A stretch of 64,000 nucleotides of DNA from an uncultured Gammaproteobacteria bacterium (GTDB taxonomy: Bacteria; Patescibacteriota; Patescibacteriia; CAZGFX01): NCBI GenBank assembly GCA_964524845.1, contig CAZGFX010000003.1, forward strand, positions 115,954-179,953, written 5' to 3'. Below, one piece after another: positions 5,741 through 10,726 of this stretch. How positions within the stretch are numbered: position 1 is the first letter of the stretch; every line of letters starts with the position of its first letter. Under the pieces are notes generated by a model. That model was not told the DNA's origin and ran no database searches. It saw only the letters and a list, made by a program, of their open reading frames with translations. A program made the translations under genes and the position numbers.

Positions 5741-5769
5741 TTGACACTCTTGTGATAAAGTGATATTGT
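5741..5769 (+). promoter_or_regulatory. sigma70-like promoter driving module unit U0
   Basis: ttgaca (5741-5746), then 17 nt, then 'tattgt' (5764-5769), immediately before 'atgaaaagtgtggaatttatta'. Confidence 0.45.
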
Positions 5770-6194
5770 TTTATGAAAAGTGTGGAATTTATTAAACTCA
5801 TTTTATCTTTTAAAGATTAAGGGATTGATATAAATCCACACTTAATTATAAAAATGTGGTTGAGTTTCGAAGGAGTTGTCACCTAGTGACTTTCATAGAA
5901 ATACTCGACCACATATTGAACATTAATAAAAATTATATATACCGCCTTGGGTTTATTATTAATTCCATTATTCTATATAGAATTATGATGTCTGGTATGA
6001 ACCCAAGGCAAAATTGTATTCCACGGATGATATTAATAAACAACTATTCAAATGAATTAAAAATAACGTTATATCTCCGTGGAAAGTTTTCTGTGTGGAA
6101 TTTATTAATGGTGTAATATCTTTTAAAGATTGTTTTTCAATATATAAATCCACACGAATAACCCCGCAAAGCTTAAAAAATGCGGGGTTTTCTG
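5770..6194 (+). ncRNA. Unit U0: one ~315-bp four-hairpin module plus a terminal A hairpin, ending in an intrinsic terminator (6161-6194)
   Basis: Conserved stems: A 'gtgtggaatttattaa / ttataaatccacac', B 'atgtggttgagttt / ctcgaccacat', C 'ccgccttgggtttatt / aacccaaggc', D 'attccacggatg / tctccgtggaaa'. Central palindromes: 'tcttttaaagatta', 'gtcacctagtgac', 'attctatatagaat', 'tattcaaatgaatta'. The 10-14 nt segments between them are variable. Terminator: 'ccccgcaaagcttaaaaaatgcgggg' plus T-run. Confidence 0.5.
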
Positions 6195-6213
6195 TTATTT
6201 TACCCAACAAACT

Positions 6214-6242
6214 TGACATTATTTAAATTATTTACTACTATT
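6214..6242 (+). promoter_or_regulatory. promoter of the IS110-like gene; same 'aaacttgaca' -35 context as the module units
   Basis: 'acaaacttgaca', then a 16-17 nt spacer, then 'tactat'. The 5' leader contains the palindrome 'ctcatgcgtgcatgag' followed by the RBS 'aaggaga'. Confidence 0.4.
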
Positions 6243-6310
6243 GTACGATATAAATAAACCTCATGCGTGCATGAGAAAAGACATAAAAAAAACAAAAAAG
6301 GAGATTTCCC

Positions 6311-8047
6311 ATGAGTATTGAGAAACTTCGTTCTTTCAAAGAACAGTACGGAGATGTTGTCGTGTGTATCGCAATCATGCTAAAAAAAGAAAGTTCGGTA
6401 ATTGCGTATGCACTCAATAACAAAGAAAGAAAATTAGAGTTTTCATTAAAACCGTCCGAGGTGGTCGGTGTTTCTGAAATTCTGACGAAAACCGATCGCG
6501 TTCTTATTTGTGCCGGAGGCGTATCGGACATGTTCATCCTCGGAGCACACAAGCAGAATCCTGAACTTCCGATCTTCTTTACTCCTACGCAAAACATAAA
6601 GAAGATTCAAGATCATGCTCGAAAAGAAGAAAAAGAAATTCCTGAAACAGTGGAAATTCTTTATGAACTCTCCTTTTCTAATGATCAGAGTGTTTGGCGT
6701 CCAAAACAGGTTGAGTACGCCGCATTGAGATCTTTGATTCGGATGCTACAAACCACTCAGAAACAACTGCGGATTAAGGTCGAACAAATATACAAACAGG
6801 TACGTCAAGCACAAACCTGTCTCAACGTAGCACTACCAGAAGGCAATCAATTCGATTTAAGAGAAGAACAGGGATTGCTTATGAGTGCTGAGTTTCGGTC
6901 ATTGGAAACGGATACGGAAAGAAAAATTGTGGCAATGCTGAAAACAATTCCTGTATATAACGAATTATTCGAACCACTCCCGAGCATCGGACCTAAAACA
7001 GCGGCAATTCTTATCTCTCAAATTCAGGATCCCAGCCTTTTCGAAAACGTTGGAAAAATAATTAAACTGTCAGGTTTTCATTGTGATAAGAACGGAAGAG
7101 CGGCTCGAAAAAAGGCCGGAGAACAAATGAACAGTTCTCCAATGCTAAAACAAGCATTGTACATCTGGGGAAAAGACGTTCTTAATAAACAATCAGCAAA
7201 AAACCCGTTTAAACGGGTTATGTTGGCACGTAAGCTTTTTGACATCGAAAAAGCTCTTCTAATCATCGCGACAGAAACACCAAACATCTCGCCTTCGGAC
7301 TGTAAGAAATGGGTTAAAGAAAATTCATGGCGAGCATCAAGCGGAGCCGTGTTTAATAAAGCATCGCGGTTCATGGTTCAGTGGCTTATTAAACTAGTTT
7401 ATAATGCATGGTGTTCATATGATAAAAAGGGATCTTTCGACATGGAGAAGTATCTGGATCGTCGTGTAAAAGACTCTATCGAGAATATTCAGAATCGAAC
7501 ACAGGAAGAAATTCGCAATGTTTCATTAAATGTTCCGTTACTGGAAACATGGCGGAAACAAATCGCTACACTTGTTTCCGAAAACAAGGAGAAGCTTGGT
7601 ATGATAAACGAAAAGTATCGGGAGCAGATTAATACATGCGAACGAACTATCAGTAATAATGAAAAGAAGATTCTCGATTATAAAGAGAAGTATGCCTCCA
7701 TCGGCAGAAAATCTAGATCCGATACAAAAGGAAAAAACAAGACAAAAATTGCCGATCCGGAAATGATCTCTATTAAAAAAGAGATTCAAACACTGGAATC
7801 GGAAAACAAAGAATTAGCACGCCAGAAAAAAAATCTTCTGGTAGAAATAAAGAAGGCGTCAAAAGACATTGAAGAAAAAATGTCCGAGACGATTTCAGAA
7901 TCAACCAATCACATGCAAAAAGACATACAAGAAGTTACAAAAAAACTTCTTGCACAATGGTTCCGAACAATAAATTCAAAAAACGGAATCAGCGTCTTAG
8001 ACCTCACAGAAGTGGGCGAAGACGAAGAAGATACTATTGCATCATAA
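6311..8047 (+). CDS. IS110-family (DEDD/Tnp) transposase-like protein; possibly catalytically degenerate; ~230-aa C-terminal coiled-coil extension
   Basis: 'LFEPLPSIGPKTAAILISQIQDPSLFENVGKIIKLSGF' matches the HhH motif of the IS110 Tnp domain ('L.SIPGIG..TAA.L.AEIGD..RF.....L..Y.GL'). 'LKQALYIWGKDVL..NP.FKRVMLARK' matches the following conserved helix. The N-terminal 'VVCIAIM' / 'LICAGG' pair aligns to IS110 'GIDxxK' / 'LEATG'. An extra Lys/Glu-rich coiled-coil tail (residues ~350-578) follows, with no IS110 counterpart. Confidence 0.65.
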   Translation: MSIEKLRSFKEQYGDVVVCIAIMLKKESSVIAYALNNKERKLEFSLKPSEVVGVSEILTKTDRVLICAGGVSDMFILGAHKQNPELPIFFTPTQNIKKIQDHARKEEKEIPETVEILYELSFSNDQSVWRPKQVEYAALRSLIRMLQTTQKQLRIKVEQIYKQVRQAQTCLNVALPEGNQFDLREEQGLLMSAEFRSLETDTERKIVAMLKTIPVYNELFEPLPSIGPKTAAILISQIQDPSLFENVGKIIKLSGFHCDKNGRAARKKAGEQMNSSPMLKQALYIWGKDVLNKQSAKNPFKRVMLARKLFDIEKALLIIATETPNISPSDCKKWVKENSWRASSGAVFNKASRFMVQWLIKLVYNAWCSYDKKGSFDMEKYLDRRVKDSIENIQNRTQEEIRNVSLNVPLLETWRKQIATLVSENKEKLGMINEKYREQINTCERTISNNEKKILDYKEKYASIGRKSRSDTKGKNKTKIADPEMISIKKEIQTLESENKELARQKKNLLVEIKKASKDIEEKMSETISESTNHMQKDIQEVTKKLLAQWFRTINSKNGISVLDLTEVGEDEEDTIAS

Positions 8048-8056
8048 TTGAAAATA

Positions 8057-8086
8057 AACCGCTTTCACTAAGGAAGCGGTTTTTTA
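8057..8086 (+). terminator. intrinsic terminator after the IS110-like gene
   Basis: 'aaccgctttcactaaggaagcggtt' plus T-run. Confidence 0.6.
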
Positions 8087-8128
8087 ATACTTATTATATT
8101 ATTAAGGTTTGTGTTTCATAATCAAAAC

Positions 8129-8157
8129 TTGACAAGATAATATAAACAAGCTAAAGT
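8129..8157 (+). promoter_or_regulatory. promoter of unit U1
   Basis: ttgaca, 17 nt 'agataatataaacaagc', then 'taaagt'. Identical in U2 and U3. Confidence 0.45.
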
Positions 8158-8159
8158 AA

Positions 8160-9137: not shown

Positions 9138-9141
9138 ATAC

Positions 9142-9170
9142 TTGACAAGATAATATAAACAAGCTAAAGT
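9142..9170 (+). promoter_or_regulatory. promoter of unit U2
   Basis: 'cttgacaagataatataaacaagctaaagt'. Confidence 0.45.
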
Positions 9171-9171
9171 A

Positions 9172-10216
9172 GTATGAAAAGTGTGGAATTTATTATGCGT
9201 TTTCGTATCTGAAAAGATTGAAAAAGGGGTATAAATCCACACTTAATTATAAAAATGTGGTTGAGTTTTTTCTTCCCATGTCACTTTGTGACTTAAGAAA
9301 CAATACTCGACCACATATTGAACATTAATAAAAAATTATATATACCGCCTTGGGTTTATTAAAATAATACTATTCTACATAGAATTATGAAAAGCATATG
9401 AGCTCAAGGCAAAATTGTATTCCACGGATGATATTAACAGAAAAATATTCAAATGAATTATCAAGTTGGATATATCTCCGTGGAAAGTTTTCTGTGTGGA
9501 ATTTATTAGCGGCGCAATATCTTTTAAAGATTATGTATAGAATATAAATCCACACTTAATTATAAAAATGTGGTTGAGTTTTAGTAAAAATTGTCACCTA
9601 GTGACTTTTCCGATCGTCCTCGACCACATATTGAACATTAATAAAAAATTATATATACCGCCTTGGGTCTATTGTAGAAATTATATTCTGTATATAATTA
9701 AATCATTATTATGAGCCCAAGGCAAAATTGTATTCCACGGATGATATTAACAGTAAAGTATTCAAATGAATTATCAGCCACATCTATCTCCGTGGAAAGT
9801 TTTCTGTGTGGAATTTATTAAAATAATACTATCTTTTAAAGATTAATGTTTATTTATAAATCCACATTTGATTATAAAAATGTGGTTGAGTTTTTGGGAC
9901 AGTGTCACTTAGTGACTTCAATCTCCGTACTCAACCACATATTGAACATTAATAAAAAATTATATATACCGCCTTGGGTTTATTAAAATAATACTATTCT
10001 ACATAGAATTATGACAGGCATATGAGCCCAAGGCAAAATTGTATTCCACGGATGATATTAAGAGCGTCATATTATAAAATAATTATTGATATTATATGTC
10101 TCTGTGGAAGATTTTTTTGTGTGGAATTTATTAATTGACAACTATCTTTTAAAGATTGTCTCTCCATGTATAAATCCACACGAATAACCCTCTTCATCAT
10201 TCGGAGAGGGTTTTTT
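9172..10216 (+). ncRNA. Unit U2: three four-hairpin modules (palindromes at 9278, 9593 and 9908), then a terminal A hairpin and terminator (10188-10216)
   Basis: Same conserved stems with different loop segments. The last D hairpin is degenerate. Terminator 'ccctcttcatcattcggagaggg' plus T6. Confidence 0.5.
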
Positions 10217-10221
10217 AATAC

Positions 10222-10250
10222 TTGACAAGATAATATAAACAAGCTAAAGT
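10222..10250 (+). promoter_or_regulatory. promoter of unit U3
   Basis: 'cttgacaagataatataaacaagctaaagt'. Confidence 0.45.
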
Positions 10251-10251
10251 A

Positions 10252-10669
10252 GTATGAAAAGTGTGGAATTTATTAAAATAATACTATCTTTTAAAGATTA
10301 ATGTTTATTTATAAATCCACATTTGATTATAAAAATGTGGTTGAGTTTTTGGGACAGTGTCACTTAGTGACTTCAATCTCCGTACTCAACCACATATTGA
10401 ACATTAATAAAAAATTATATATACCGCCTTGGGTTTATTAAAATAATACTATTCTACATAGAATTATGAAAAGCATATGAGCTCAAGGCAAAATTGTATT
10501 CCACGGATGATATTAACAGTAAAGTATTCAAATGAATTATCAGCCACATCTATCTCCGTGGAAAGTTTTCTGTGTGGAATTTATTAACGGTGTACTATCT
10601 TTTAAAGATTGTCTCTCCATGTATAAATCCACACGAATAACCCCGTAGCATCAATGCTCGGGGTTTTTT
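10252..10669 (+). ncRNA. Unit U3: one module that is a mosaic duplicate of pieces of U2 modules, then a terminal A hairpin and terminator (10641-10669)
   Basis: 10261-10470 is near-identical to 9806-10015. Its D hairpin matches the one at about 9700-9790 instead. Terminator 'ccccgtagcatcaatgctcgggg' plus T. Confidence 0.5.
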
Positions 10670-10678
10670 AATTATACG

Positions 10679-10707
10679 TTGACATTGATAATATAAAGAA
10701 TACAATA
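10679..10707 (+). promoter_or_regulatory. promoter of the 10727 gene
   Basis: ttgaca, 16 nt, then 'tacaat', then the RBS 'aaaggagg' 5 nt before the ATG. Confidence 0.5.
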
Positions 10708-10726
10708 ACAAAAAAAGGAGGTCACC

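What the first reader, a model, noticed from the sequence alone, without database searches (positions are those of the whole stretch)
5741..10726. IS110-family recombinase homolog flanked by an array of promoter/terminator-delimited noncoding units, each built from four-hairpin modules with conserved stems and hypervariable internal loops
Seen in the sequence:
- Four tandem noncoding units lie on the + strand: U0 5770-6194, U1 8160-9137, U2 9172-10216, U3 10252-10669. None has a conserved ORF.
- Each unit starts right after a near-identical sigma70-like promoter ('cttgacaagataatataaacaagctaaagt', or 'ttgaca-N17-tattgt' for U0). Each ends in a GC hairpin plus T-run terminator.
- The units hold 1, 2, 3 and 1 copies of a ~315-bp module, seven in total. 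The modules are marked by the palindrome 'gtcac(c/t)t(a/t)gtgac' at 5878, 8268, 8826, 9278, 9593, 9908 and 10367.
- Each module is four consecutive long hairpins. Stems A ('gtgtggaatttattaa / ttataaatccacac'), B ('atgtggttgagttt / ctc(g)accacat'), C ('ccgccttgggtttatt / aacccaaggc') and D ('ttccacggatg / tctccgtggaa') are conserved. Each encloses a conserved small central palindrome.
- The two 10-14 nt segments flanking every central palindrome differ from module to module. That gives 8 variable segments per module and about 56 in total.
- Modules are mosaic. U3 is a duplicate of part of U2, but with the D hairpin of a different module.
- A 578-aa IS110-family transposase homolog sits between U0 and U1 on the same strand. 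Its promoter has the same 'aaacttgaca' context.

Established knowledge: IS110-family recombinases use a bridge RNA encoded at the element end, 5' of the gene in IS110 proper and 3' in IS1111. Its two stem-loops carry programmable internal loops that base-pair with target and donor DNA.

Inference: this locus looks like a multiplexed, arrayed version of that arrangement, with conserved scaffold hairpins carrying variable guide-like internal loops. It could be a domesticated IS110-derived RNA-guided system with a CRISPR-like guide array. I know of no described system with this layout.
Basis: partly seen in the sequence, partly recalled or inferred. Interest (0 to 1): 0.93.

Follow-up and report, generated by a model that had tools for sequence, protein, structure and literature searches.

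The report
TIGR-Tas guide-RNA array, stem-loop type
This locus is a TIGR-Tas system, a kind of RNA-guided DNA-binding system first described in 2025: a nuclease-dead TasR protein flanked by 32 hairpin guide RNAs, so it is a new example of a known kind and not a new IS110-derived invention.

Summary
There are 32 hairpins on the + strand: 11 A, 7 B, 7 C and 7 D. They lie in four promoter/terminator units around a 578-aa gene.

Each hairpin has a 12-13-bp outer stem, a large internal loop and a 4-5-bp inner hairpin. Scaffolds are 95% identical between copies and linkers 98%. The two 9-11-nt loop segments are only 34% identical (chance 28%) and are not complementary to each other.

The interpretation needs correcting. 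The protein is not an IS110 recombinase. Its only Pfam hit is the shared Transposase_20/Nop-type domain. The best solved relative by sequence and by fold is TIGR-TasR (9mty). A profile of the family scores TasR at 4.6e-47 and IS621 at 1.2e-9. The IS621 serine nucleophile position is Asn, and the first two RuvC acidic positions read Ala and Cys.

Each variable segment is flanked by Y-U-W on its 5' side and U-R on its 3' side, twice per hairpin. That is the box C/box D pseudo-symmetry of stem-loop tigRNAs.

The layout matches the Candidate Phyla Radiation (CPR) clade of dead-RuvC TasR with stem-loop arrays (Faure 2025; Xu 2026 preprint, shown to act as RNA-guided repressors). No natural target was found.

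Three details are unusual: a four-stem 313-bp super-repeat with cassette-like spacer differences, separate promoters for each sub-array, and a unique 200-aa C-terminal coiled coil.

The parts
5741..5769 (+). Sigma70-like promoter of sub-array U0 (TTGACA-17-TATTGT)
   Evidence: sequence
5780..6155 (+). Sub-array U0: five stem-loop tigRNA units (A B C D A)
6162..6200 (+). Intrinsic terminator of U0 (CCCCGC...GCGGGG followed by a T-run)
   Evidence: read from the sequence. The scan did not list it because the loop is longer than 8 nt.
6213..6241 (+). Promoter-like site of tasR (TTGACA-17-TACTAT)
6311..8047 (+). tasR gene, 578 aa. Parts: RuvC-like domain predicted inactive (about aa 14-125), coiled coil (132-212), Nop/Transposase_20-type C-terminal domain (214-373), and a unique C-terminal helical extension (378-558).
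8059..8085 (+). Terminator hairpin plus T-run after tasR
   Evidence: read from the sequence
8129..8157 (+). Promoter of sub-array U1 (TTGACA-17-TAAAGT)
8168..8474 (+). U1, first module: four tigRNA units (A B C D)
8480..8720 (+). Insert inside U1. It is a copy of an interspersed repeat family also found at 3241-4070, 11200-11600 and 34574-34714. It is not a tigRNA unit.
8726..9101 (+). U1, second module plus terminal A unit (A B C D A)
9108..9136 (+). Terminator of U1
   Evidence: sequence
9142..9170 (+). Promoter of sub-array U2
9181..10181 (+). Sub-array U2: 13 tigRNA units, (A B C D) x3 plus a terminal A
10186..10218 (+). Terminator of U2
10222..10250 (+). Promoter of sub-array U3
10261..10634 (+). 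Sub-array U3: five tigRNA units (A B C D A), a mosaic of three U2 modules
10641..10669 (+). Terminator of U3
   Evidence: sequence

Best explanation
This is a TIGR-Tas system of the stem-loop type.

**Proposed mechanism**
1. Four independently promoted and terminated transcripts carry 32 stem-loop tigRNA units (inferred from promoter- and terminator-like sequences).
2. Each unit is probably released from the precursor by an unknown RNase (inferred from the literature).
3. Each unit is bound by a dimer of the 578-aa TasR. One protomer reads the box C/box D pair at the outer stem. The other reads the equivalent pair at the inner hairpin (inferred from the pseudo-symmetric motifs and from solved TasR structures).
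4. The two 9-11-nt loop segments, spacers A and B, pair with opposite strands of one 18-20-bp DNA site. This is the published tandem-spacer rule and was not tested here.
5. The RuvC-like domain lacks the first two acidic residues (predicted here). The complex should therefore bind DNA without cutting it and block transcription or another DNA transaction. This was shown experimentally for the related CsTasR and was not tested here.

The natural targets are unknown.
For: **Protein**
- The best PDB match by sequence is 9mty, TaTasR.
- A profile of the family gives TaTasR 4.6e-47, TasH 1.7e-11 and IS621 1.2e-9.
- The AF2 model has pLDDT 85. Its top Foldseek hit is 9mty at 7e-9, ahead of IS621.
- Ala21 and Cys67 sit at the first two RuvC acidic positions, and Asn261 at the IS621 Ser241 position.

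**RNA**
- All 32 units share the same fold, and the fold is supported by covariation.
- Each spacer is 9-11 nt and is flanked by Y-U-W on the 5' side and U-R on the 3' side, twice per unit. The closing pair is C-G in the B inner hairpin and U-A elsewhere.
- Spacers A and B of one unit are not complementary to each other.
- Scaffolds are 95% identical and linkers 98%, against 34% for spacers.

**Layout and relatives**
- The arrays lie on both sides of the gene and end in terminators.
- In three relatives' loci (L002, L003, L007), hairpins with the same layout flank the gene: a long outer stem, a large internal loop and a small inner hairpin. L007 units read ...CUU-N10-UGG...CC....

**Literature**
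- PMC12045711 describes stem-loop arrays and a CPR clade of TasR with an inactive RuvC.
- 10.64898/2026.09.09.750476 describes a hairpin in the loop, 10-nt spacers, arrays upstream and downstream of the gene, and repression by CsTasR.
Against: - No transcript, processing or binding data exist for this locus.
- No target was found. The best matches in the 64-kb window have 2 mismatches, no better than control arrangements. Viral-contig hits occur at chance rate.
- The protein is only 31% identical or less to any other representative. It also carries a 200-aa C-terminal extension that no sampled relative has, so its activity could differ.
- The box motifs are UU(A)/UA in most positions, not the published CUU/UG.
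- The CUU motif reported at processing sites is present in only one of the four linker types.
- RuvC inactivity rests on alignment and a predicted model only.
Confidence: 0.82

Rival explanations
1. IS110-type bridge recombinase with a multiplexed array of bridge RNAs. The hairpins would be target- and donor-binding loops that direct recombination.
For: - Pfam Transposase_20 hit.
- IS621 and ISCro4 are the second-best structural matches, at E about 2e-7.
- Bridge RNA loops are also internal loops with guides on both sides.
Against: - There is no DEDD_Tnp_IS110 hit.
- Asn sits at the Ser241 nucleophile position.
- Ala21 and Cys67 sit at the first two DEDD positions.
- The family profile scores TasR 37 orders of magnitude better than IS621.
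- No guide matches the locus borders or anything else in the locus.
- The gene is single-copy between ruvA and uvrB.
- The 32 units stand alone. They are not two-loop bridges.
Confidence: 0.03
2. A TIGR-like ribonucleoprotein that targets RNA instead of DNA. It would be a snoRNP-like guide for RNA modification, or would bind RNA, with each spacer pairing separately to an RNA.
For: - Faure et al. suggest the CPR dead-RuvC clade could be an intermediate towards box C/D snoRNPs.
- The guide architecture is the same as in box C/D RNAs.
Against: - Published TasR did not act on RNA substrates (PMC12045711, context).
- CsTasR binds and represses DNA targets.
- No methyltransferase or L7Ae-like gene lies next to the locus.
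- The array contains no RUGAUGA box.
Confidence: 0.07
3. A palindromic intergenic satellite (REP/BIME-like) into which a transposase-like gene has inserted. The hairpins would have no guide function.
For: The genome does carry other interspersed repeats, and one of them has inserted into U1.
Against: - All the hairpins are on one strand and lie only next to this gene.
- They sit in promoter/terminator units.
- Variation is confined to two loop segments of fixed length, with pseudo-symmetric flanks.
- Distant relatives of the protein carry different hairpins of the same design.
Confidence: 0.02
4. Same TIGR-Tas system, but the effector is catalytically active. It would cut or nick DNA using non-canonical residues, or through the unique C-terminal extension recruiting a partner.
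For: - Asp73 is invariant in the family.
- The C-terminal 200 aa have no assigned function.
Against: - There is no acidic residue at the end of strand 1 or strand 4 of the modelled RuvC fold.
- Two related dead-RuvC TasR proteins showed no cleavage.
- The tail is a plain helical coiled coil with only composition-type hits.
Confidence: 0.06

Closest known systems
Stem-loop TIGR arrays with catalytically inactive TasR of the CPR clade, for example CsTasR from Candidatus Staskawiczbacteria (Faure et al. 2025, PMC12045711; Xu et al. 2026, bioRxiv 10.64898/2026.09.09.750476)
   Same: - A RuvC-like domain lacking catalytic residues, then a coiled coil, then a Nop-type domain.
- Guide units made of a long outer stem, two spacers of about 10 nt and a 4-5-bp hairpin in the loop.
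[quoted passage not shown]
- A chromosomal, non-viral setting whose flanking genes are most similar to CPR bacteria.
- A protein of similar size (547 vs 578 aa).
   Different: - There is no 80-residue RuvC insertion. Here the RuvC domain is compact, and the extra length is a 200-aa C-terminal helical tail.
- The box motifs are mostly UU(A)/UA, not CUU/UG.
- The stems fall into four classes repeated in a fixed A-B-C-D order as a 313-bp super-repeat.
- Every sub-array has its own promoter-like site and terminator.
- Identity to any known representative is 31% or less.
TaTasR with a dual-repeat TIGR array (PDB 9mty)
   Same: - It is the best solved relative by sequence and by fold.
- Two short spacers are each bounded by box C and box D.
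- A dimer reads a pseudo-symmetric RNA.
   Different: - TaTasR has an active RuvC (D11) and cuts both strands.
- Its guides are 36-nt units cut from alternating short repeats and have no long stems.
- It is 331 aa long.
IS110/IS621 bridge recombinase with bridge RNA
   Same: - They share the Nop-like RNA-binding (Transposase_20) domain and an N-terminal RuvC-fold domain.
- The guide segments lie on both sides of internal loops.
   Different: - IS621 has a DEDD tetrad and a Ser241 nucleophile.
- It uses one RNA with a target loop and a donor loop.
- It is a mobile, multi-copy element.
- None of these holds here.
Archaeal/eukaryotic box C/D snoRNP (Nop5, fibrillarin, L7Ae)
   Same: - A Nop domain with a coiled-coil dimer and an inactive RuvC-like N-terminal domain.
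- A guide RNA with two guide segments, each bounded by box C/D-type motifs.
   Different: - There are no K-turn RUGAUGA/CUGA boxes.
- No L7Ae or fibrillarin partner lies nearby.
- The published relatives target DNA, not RNA.

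Membership tests
TIGR-Tas (stem-loop type, dead-RuvC TasR clade) | The effector has a Nop-type RNA-binding domain with a coiled-coil dimerisation element and is closest to Tas proteins. | tested here: met
   - 9mty (TaTasR) is the top PDB match by sequence, by family profile at 4.6e-47 and by Foldseek at 7e-9.
- The model shows long paired helices at 132-212 followed by a helical C-terminal domain.
TIGR-Tas (stem-loop type, dead-RuvC TasR clade) | The guide units each hold two short (8-12 nt) variable spacers. | tested here: met
   - There are 32 units with spacers of 9-11 nt and 28 distinct pairs.
- Spacers are 34% identical, against 95% for the scaffold.
TIGR-Tas (stem-loop type, dead-RuvC TasR clade) | Each spacer is preceded by a box C-like motif and followed by a box D-like motif. 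The same motifs occur at the stem and at the loop (pseudo-two-fold symmetry), and one C/D base pair covaries. | tested here: met
   - Y-U-W precedes and U-R follows both spacers in all four hairpin classes.
- The closing pair is C-G in the B inner hairpin and U-A elsewhere.
- The motif letters differ from the published CUU/UG in most positions.
TIGR-Tas (stem-loop type, dead-RuvC TasR clade) | Palindromic stems flank each spacer pair. In the CPR clade the loop between the spacers forms a small hairpin. | tested here: met
   - RNAfold on all 32 units.
- 89% of cells pair, and 13 of 17 pairs change on both sides.
TIGR-Tas (stem-loop type, dead-RuvC TasR clade) | Arrays lie next to tas, upstream and/or downstream, and end in a rho-independent terminator. 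| tested here: met
   - One sub-array lies upstream and three downstream, all on the gene's strand. Each ends in a GC hairpin plus T-run.
- No units lie elsewhere in the window.
TIGR-Tas (stem-loop type, dead-RuvC TasR clade) | The RuvC-like domain has substituted catalytic residues. | tested here: met
   - Ala21 is at the end of strand 1 and Cys67 at the end of strand 4. Relatives have D, or E in 'ELGG', at these positions.
- This rests on alignment and a predicted model only.
TIGR-Tas (stem-loop type, dead-RuvC TasR clade) | A CUU motif sits at the stem base or in the linker and marks the processing site. | tested here: not met
   - Only the A-to-B linker (..CAC|UUAAUU) gives a CUU. The B-C, C-D and D-A linkers lack it.
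- The preprint describes this feature as frequent, not as defining.
TIGR-Tas (stem-loop type, dead-RuvC TasR clade) | The array is transcribed and processed into unit tigRNAs that co-purify with Tas. | not testable with these tools
   This needs RNA-seq or a pull-down. Only promoter- and terminator-like sequences were seen.
TIGR-Tas (stem-loop type, dead-RuvC TasR clade) | Spacers A and B pair with opposite strands of one contiguous DNA target. | tested here: inconclusive
   - No target was found in the 64-kb window beyond control arrangements, nor inside the locus.
- Viral-contig hits occur at chance rate.
IS110 family (bridge recombinases) | A DEDD catalytic tetrad in the N-terminal RuvC-like domain (Pfam DEDD_Tnp_IS110). 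| tested here: not met
   - There is no PF01548 hit, even at E up to 1.
- Ala21 and Cys67 sit at the first two positions.
IS110 family (bridge recombinases) | A serine nucleophile in the Tnp domain (Ser241 of IS621). | tested here: not met
   - In the profile alignment to IS621, 'ESGSS' aligns with the family's 'edgr'.
- The query has K260-N261-G262 there.
IS110 family (bridge recombinases) | One bridge RNA with a target loop and a donor loop, whose guides match the element ends and the target. | tested here: not met
   - There are 32 independent single-loop units.
- No guide matches the locus borders or the rest of the window.
IS110 family (bridge recombinases) | A mobile element, present in several copies or with recognisable ends. 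| tested here: not met
   - The protein is alone in its 90% and 50% clusters.
- There is one copy in the window, between ruvA and uvrB.
Box C/D snoRNP | K-turn boxes RUGAUGA and CUGA, with L7Ae and fibrillarin partners. | tested here: not met
   - There is no TGATGA in the array.
- The neighbouring genes are FemAB, RuvA, a small membrane protein and UvrB.

The most novel reading that the evidence does not exclude
The array may record active spacer replacement, a process for which TIGR systems have no known mechanism.
- The 313-bp four-hairpin modules are 95-98% identical in stems and in unstructured linkers.
- Most spacer pairs are nevertheless unrelated.
- Some spacers differ by only 1-2 bases, one 9-mer is shared between hairpin classes A and C, and U3 is a recombinant of three modules.

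If spacers are swapped as cassettes between fixed box C/D flanks, this locus and its strain variants could show how TIGR arrays acquire guides.

Separately, the unique 200-aa coiled-coil tail could add an effector or oligomerisation function not seen in characterised TasR proteins.
Probability: 0.2. Interest if true: 0.65.

Novelty: new member of a known kind. Interest (0 to 1): 0.3.

Why it matters
The finding does not reveal a new class of system. It does give a clean chromosomal example of a dead-RuvC TIGR-TasR locus that bears on three questions the TIGR literature itself lists as open.
- **Transcription.** Each sub-array has its own near-identical promoter-like site and a terminator. This argues for transcription independent of tas.
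- **Spacer origin.** Near-identical modules with unrelated spacers, a few near-duplicate spacers and clear inter-module recombination make this a good locus for studying how spacers change.
- **Effector diversity.** The effector has a compact dead RuvC plus a long C-terminal coiled coil that none of the 58 aligned relatives has.

It is also a reminder that a weak Transposase_20 hit next to hairpin arrays should be read as Tas, not as IS110.

Tried and rejected
- **Rfam.** A gathering-threshold scan of the window gave no family.
- **Word-indexed homology search.** It found only the protein itself.
- **The search for related loci.**
  - The single protein found no relative in the GTDB representative genomes, so the source genome has no close species representative there.
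- **Source contig.** Its name could not be recovered. Only a 2-kb Logan contig was returned, and the cluster carries no accession or name.
- **Taxonomy.** UvrB is at most 55% identical to anything, with mostly CPR lineages among the best hits. This is suggestive only.
- **Target search inside the window.** I used the A + revcomp(B) geometry, deduced from the published 8-nt 3' overhangs. The best matches had 2 mismatches, the same as control geometries. Inside the locus there were only trivial self-overlaps.
- **Target search in viral contigs.** Four guides were scanned with a 0-2-nt central gap.
  - This gave 9 hits. Gap-0 hits were no more frequent per combination than gap-1 or gap-2 hits.
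  - No locus was hit by a second guide.
  - The one 35%-GC phage contig with an exact match (L026) could not be extended beyond 2.5 kb.
- **PADLOC.** It gave only coiled-coil-type hits to the ZorA tail.
- **REP/satellite reading and IS110 reading.** Both were considered and rejected; see the rival explanations.

Full report
**1. What is in the sequence**

Region 5741-10669 holds four non-coding units on the + strand, placed around one 578-aa ORF at 6311-8047. Anchor searches find 11 A, 7 B, 7 C and 7 D hairpins. All are on the + strand and nowhere else in the 64-kb window. A covariance model built from 28 distinct hairpins recovers exactly these 32 units at 47-69 bits. It finds nothing else in the window or in six other loci.

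The order of hairpins is (A B C D)n A in every unit, with n = 1, 2, 3 and 1. TRF reports the 313-bp period.

Each unit starts after a sigma70-like site. These are TTGACA-17-TAAAGT, identical at 8129, 9142 and 10222, and TTGACA-17-TATTGT at 5741. Each unit ends in a GC hairpin plus T-run. The gene has its own promoter-like site (6213) and terminator (8059-8085).

U1 is interrupted at 8480-8720 by a copy of an unrelated interspersed repeat. The same repeat occurs at 3241-4070, 11200-11600 and 34574-34714.

**2. Anatomy of one unit**

RNAfold gives the same design for all 32 units: a 12-13-bp outer stem, often with one bulge, then a large internal loop, then a 4-5-bp inner hairpin.

Every unit parses as: outer 5' arm | Y-U-W | spacer A (9-10 nt) | U | inner hairpin starting with R and ending with Y | U-W | spacer B (9-11 nt) | U | outer 3' arm starting with R. 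Each spacer therefore has the same short motif before it and the same motif after it, once at the stem and once at the loop. The Y:R closing pair is C-G in the inner hairpin of class B (UG...CUU) and U-A elsewhere.

The four stem classes differ in sequence but share this geometry. On one common alignment:
- 89% of cells pair, against 33-47% for slid partners;
- 13 of 17 pairs change on both sides;
- the covariation score is 0.569, against 0.22 or less for the slid controls.

Within-class compensatory changes are also visible. Examples are D8410 (GATGT/ACATC against GATAT/ATATC), C9658 (U-A to C-G) and the inner stem of D10044.

Spacers A and B of a unit are not complementary: 40% are pairable in register, against 38.5% for shuffled partners.

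Between copies of a class:
- scaffolds are 95% identical and linkers 98%;
- spacers are 34% identical, against 28% expected by chance;
- spacer GC (34.8%) equals window GC.

There are 28 distinct spacer pairs. A few differ by 1-2 bases. One 9-mer, AAATAATAC, serves as spacer A in both class A and class C units. U3 combines A and B of the third U2 module, C of the first and D of the second.

**3. The protein**

Pfam gives only Transposase_20, at residues 218-294 with E 6.6e-5. There is no DEDD_Tnp_IS110 hit.

The protein is alone in its 90% cluster. An exhaustive HMMER search of 1.84 billion representatives finds 193 relatives at 31% identity or less. Of the 59 sequences in the alignment built from them (query included), 57 carry Transposase_20 and 10 a weak DEDD hit.

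Against the PDB:
- The best sequence match is 9mty, the TIGR-TasR structure.
- A profile of the family scores TaTasR 4.6e-47, TasH 1.7e-11, IS621 1.2e-9 and ISCro4 6.6e-9.
- An AF2 model (pLDDT 85, pTM 0.73) shows an RNase H-like N-terminal domain (strands 16-21, 28-34, 41-46, 63-68 and 88-92), long helices at 132-212, a helical domain at 214-373 and two further very long helices at 409-471 and 483-558.
- Foldseek ranks 9mty first (7e-9), then IS621 and ISCro4 (about 2e-7), then TasH (about 1e-3).

In the profile alignment, the IS621 'ESGSS' segment that holds the nucleophile aligns with the family's 'edgr'. The query reads K260-N261-G262 at that point. That this segment holds Ser241, and the IS621 DEDD numbering, are from my own recollection of the IS621 papers.

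At the end of strand 1 the query has Ala21. Some relatives have 'YAVDY' (Asp) at this position, and others have Ala, His or Arg. At the 'ELGG' glutamate the query has Cys67. Both lines point to an inactive RuvC-like domain and no serine recombinase chemistry. This is a prediction from alignment and model, not a test.

After the invariant Trp367 the query continues for 211 residues. The median in 58 relatives is 18 and the maximum 80. This tail gives only coiled-coil-type hits.

**4. Relatives carry the same kind of hairpins**

Loci of three relatives show hairpins of the same design flanking the gene, with unrelated stem sequences. These are P0009 in L007, P0002 in L002 and P0003 in L003. One example from L007 is GGGAGAGGAA-CUU-N10-UGGCUUUAGGCC-N11-UUGUUCCUCUCC. 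P0003 lies in an otherwise housekeeping neighbourhood with recR, dnaB and ribosomal protein genes. The present locus likewise sits between femAB/ruvA and uvrB.

**5. Comparison with what is known**

Faure et al. (Science 2025, PMC12045711) define TIGR-Tas as follows:
- The arrays are either dual-repeat or stem-loop.
- They end in rho-independent terminators and can be split into sub-arrays.

Xu et al. (bioRxiv 10.64898/2026.09.09.750476) add the following:
- This CPR clade has tigRNAs with a hairpin in the loop.
- CsTasR (547 aa) uses two 10-nt spacers and a 5-bp stem between them.
- Its tigRNAs lie upstream and downstream of the gene.
- Its RuvC is dead.
- It represses transcription in an RNA-guided way in E. 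coli.

Every sequence-level defining feature was tested here and met. The exceptions are the exact letters of the boxes (mostly UU(A)/UA in place of CUU/UG) and the CUU linker motif, which is present in one of the four linker types. The IS110-defining features were tested and not met: the DEDD tetrad, the serine nucleophile, a two-loop bridge RNA matching the element ends, and mobility.

I therefore file the locus as a stem-loop TIGR-TasR system and not as an IS110 derivative. It reflects the shared ancestry of the Nop-like RNA-binding domain and of the loop-borne guides.

**6. Mechanism, and what is shown versus inferred**

Shown here:
- the RNA fold, with covariation support;
- pseudo-symmetric flanks;
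- variation confined to the spacers;
- promoter- and terminator-like signals;
- protein family and fold;
- absence of the catalytic residues in the alignment.

Inferred from the literature:
- processing into unit tigRNAs;
- a 2:1 protein:RNA complex;
- spacer A and spacer B pairing to opposite strands of one 18-20-bp site;
- binding without cleavage, leading to repression or blocking.

The target geometry, one strand reading spacerA + revcomp(spacerB), was deduced from the published 8-nt 3' overhangs.

With that geometry no target was found:
- In the window the best matches have 2 mismatches, the same as control arrangements.
- Inside the locus there are only self-overlaps.
- Four guides scanned against IMG/VR gave 9 hits. 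There were 2 independent sites among the 4 gap-0 combinations and 5 among the 8 gap-1 and gap-2 combinations. That is chance level, and no second guide hit any locus. The published authors also warn that 18-nt targets give many false positives.

The biological role here therefore stays open: host gene control, defence against mobile elements, or something else.

**7. Novelty and score**

The kind of system is known and its mechanism has been tested on a related protein. This locus is a divergent new member. Three details are worth recording:
1. Four stem classes sit in a fixed order and form a 313-bp super-repeat. The stems and linkers are near-identical, yet most spacers are unrelated. That is hard to explain by drift alone and bears on the unsolved question of spacer origin.
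2. Each sub-array has its own near-identical promoter-like site and terminator.
3. The effector carries a unique 200-aa coiled-coil tail.

None of these changes the classification. I score interest at 0.3.

Noticed in passing
window 3241-4070, 8480-8720, 11200-11600, 34574-34714: An interspersed repeat family unrelated to the hairpins. It has three parts: a core of about 70 nt (CATTGTCATGCTGAAC...GGATCACAGCATCT.CCGTGTAAC), 17-20-nt tandem units containing (A/G)GATCCTGAAA, and 15-nt tandem units TTCAGGATGACATTG. One copy has inserted into array unit U1 between a D hairpin and an A hairpin.
   Followed up: partly
window 7463-8047 (residues 385-578 of the protein): The C-terminal tail after the conserved Trp367 is 211 aa. 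The median in 58 relatives is 18 aa and the maximum 80 aa. It is modelled as two very long helices. It gives only coiled-coil-type hits (ZorA tail, Med4).
   Followed up: partly
L026 2487-2504 (IMGVR_UViG_3300020185_000195): An exact 18-nt match to the predicted target of unit B8244 (TTGGGACGGCGGAGATTG). It lies in a 35%-GC tailed-phage contig, about 0.8 kb downstream of a terminase-like gene. The hit rate is at chance level, and only 2.5 kb of the 28.8-kb contig could be read.
   Followed up: partly
window 9345-9410, 9806-9867, 9969-10034, 10261-10322, 10424-10489: The same 9-nt spacer A (AAATAATAC) occurs in hairpins of two different stem classes (A and C), paired with three different spacers B. 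So three guides share one half-site.
   Followed up: no
window 6093-6155, 9039-9101, 10119-10181, 10572-10634: The terminal A hairpin of each unit carries one of only two related versions of each spacer (A[TC]GGTGTA[AC] or ATTGACAAC; TTTTTCAATA or TCTCTCCATG). These terminal units are much less variable than the internal ones.
   Followed up: no
window 20535-20765: Tandem 18-nt repeats (GTGGAGACACAATAGCCT, four perfect copies), next to 45-nt repeats containing its reverse complement.
   Followed up: no
whole window: There were no Rfam matches at gathering threshold in 64 kb, so no tRNA or rRNA gene was detected. UvrB is at most 55% identical to any GTDB species representative, and the best hits are mostly CPR lineages.
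   Followed up: partly
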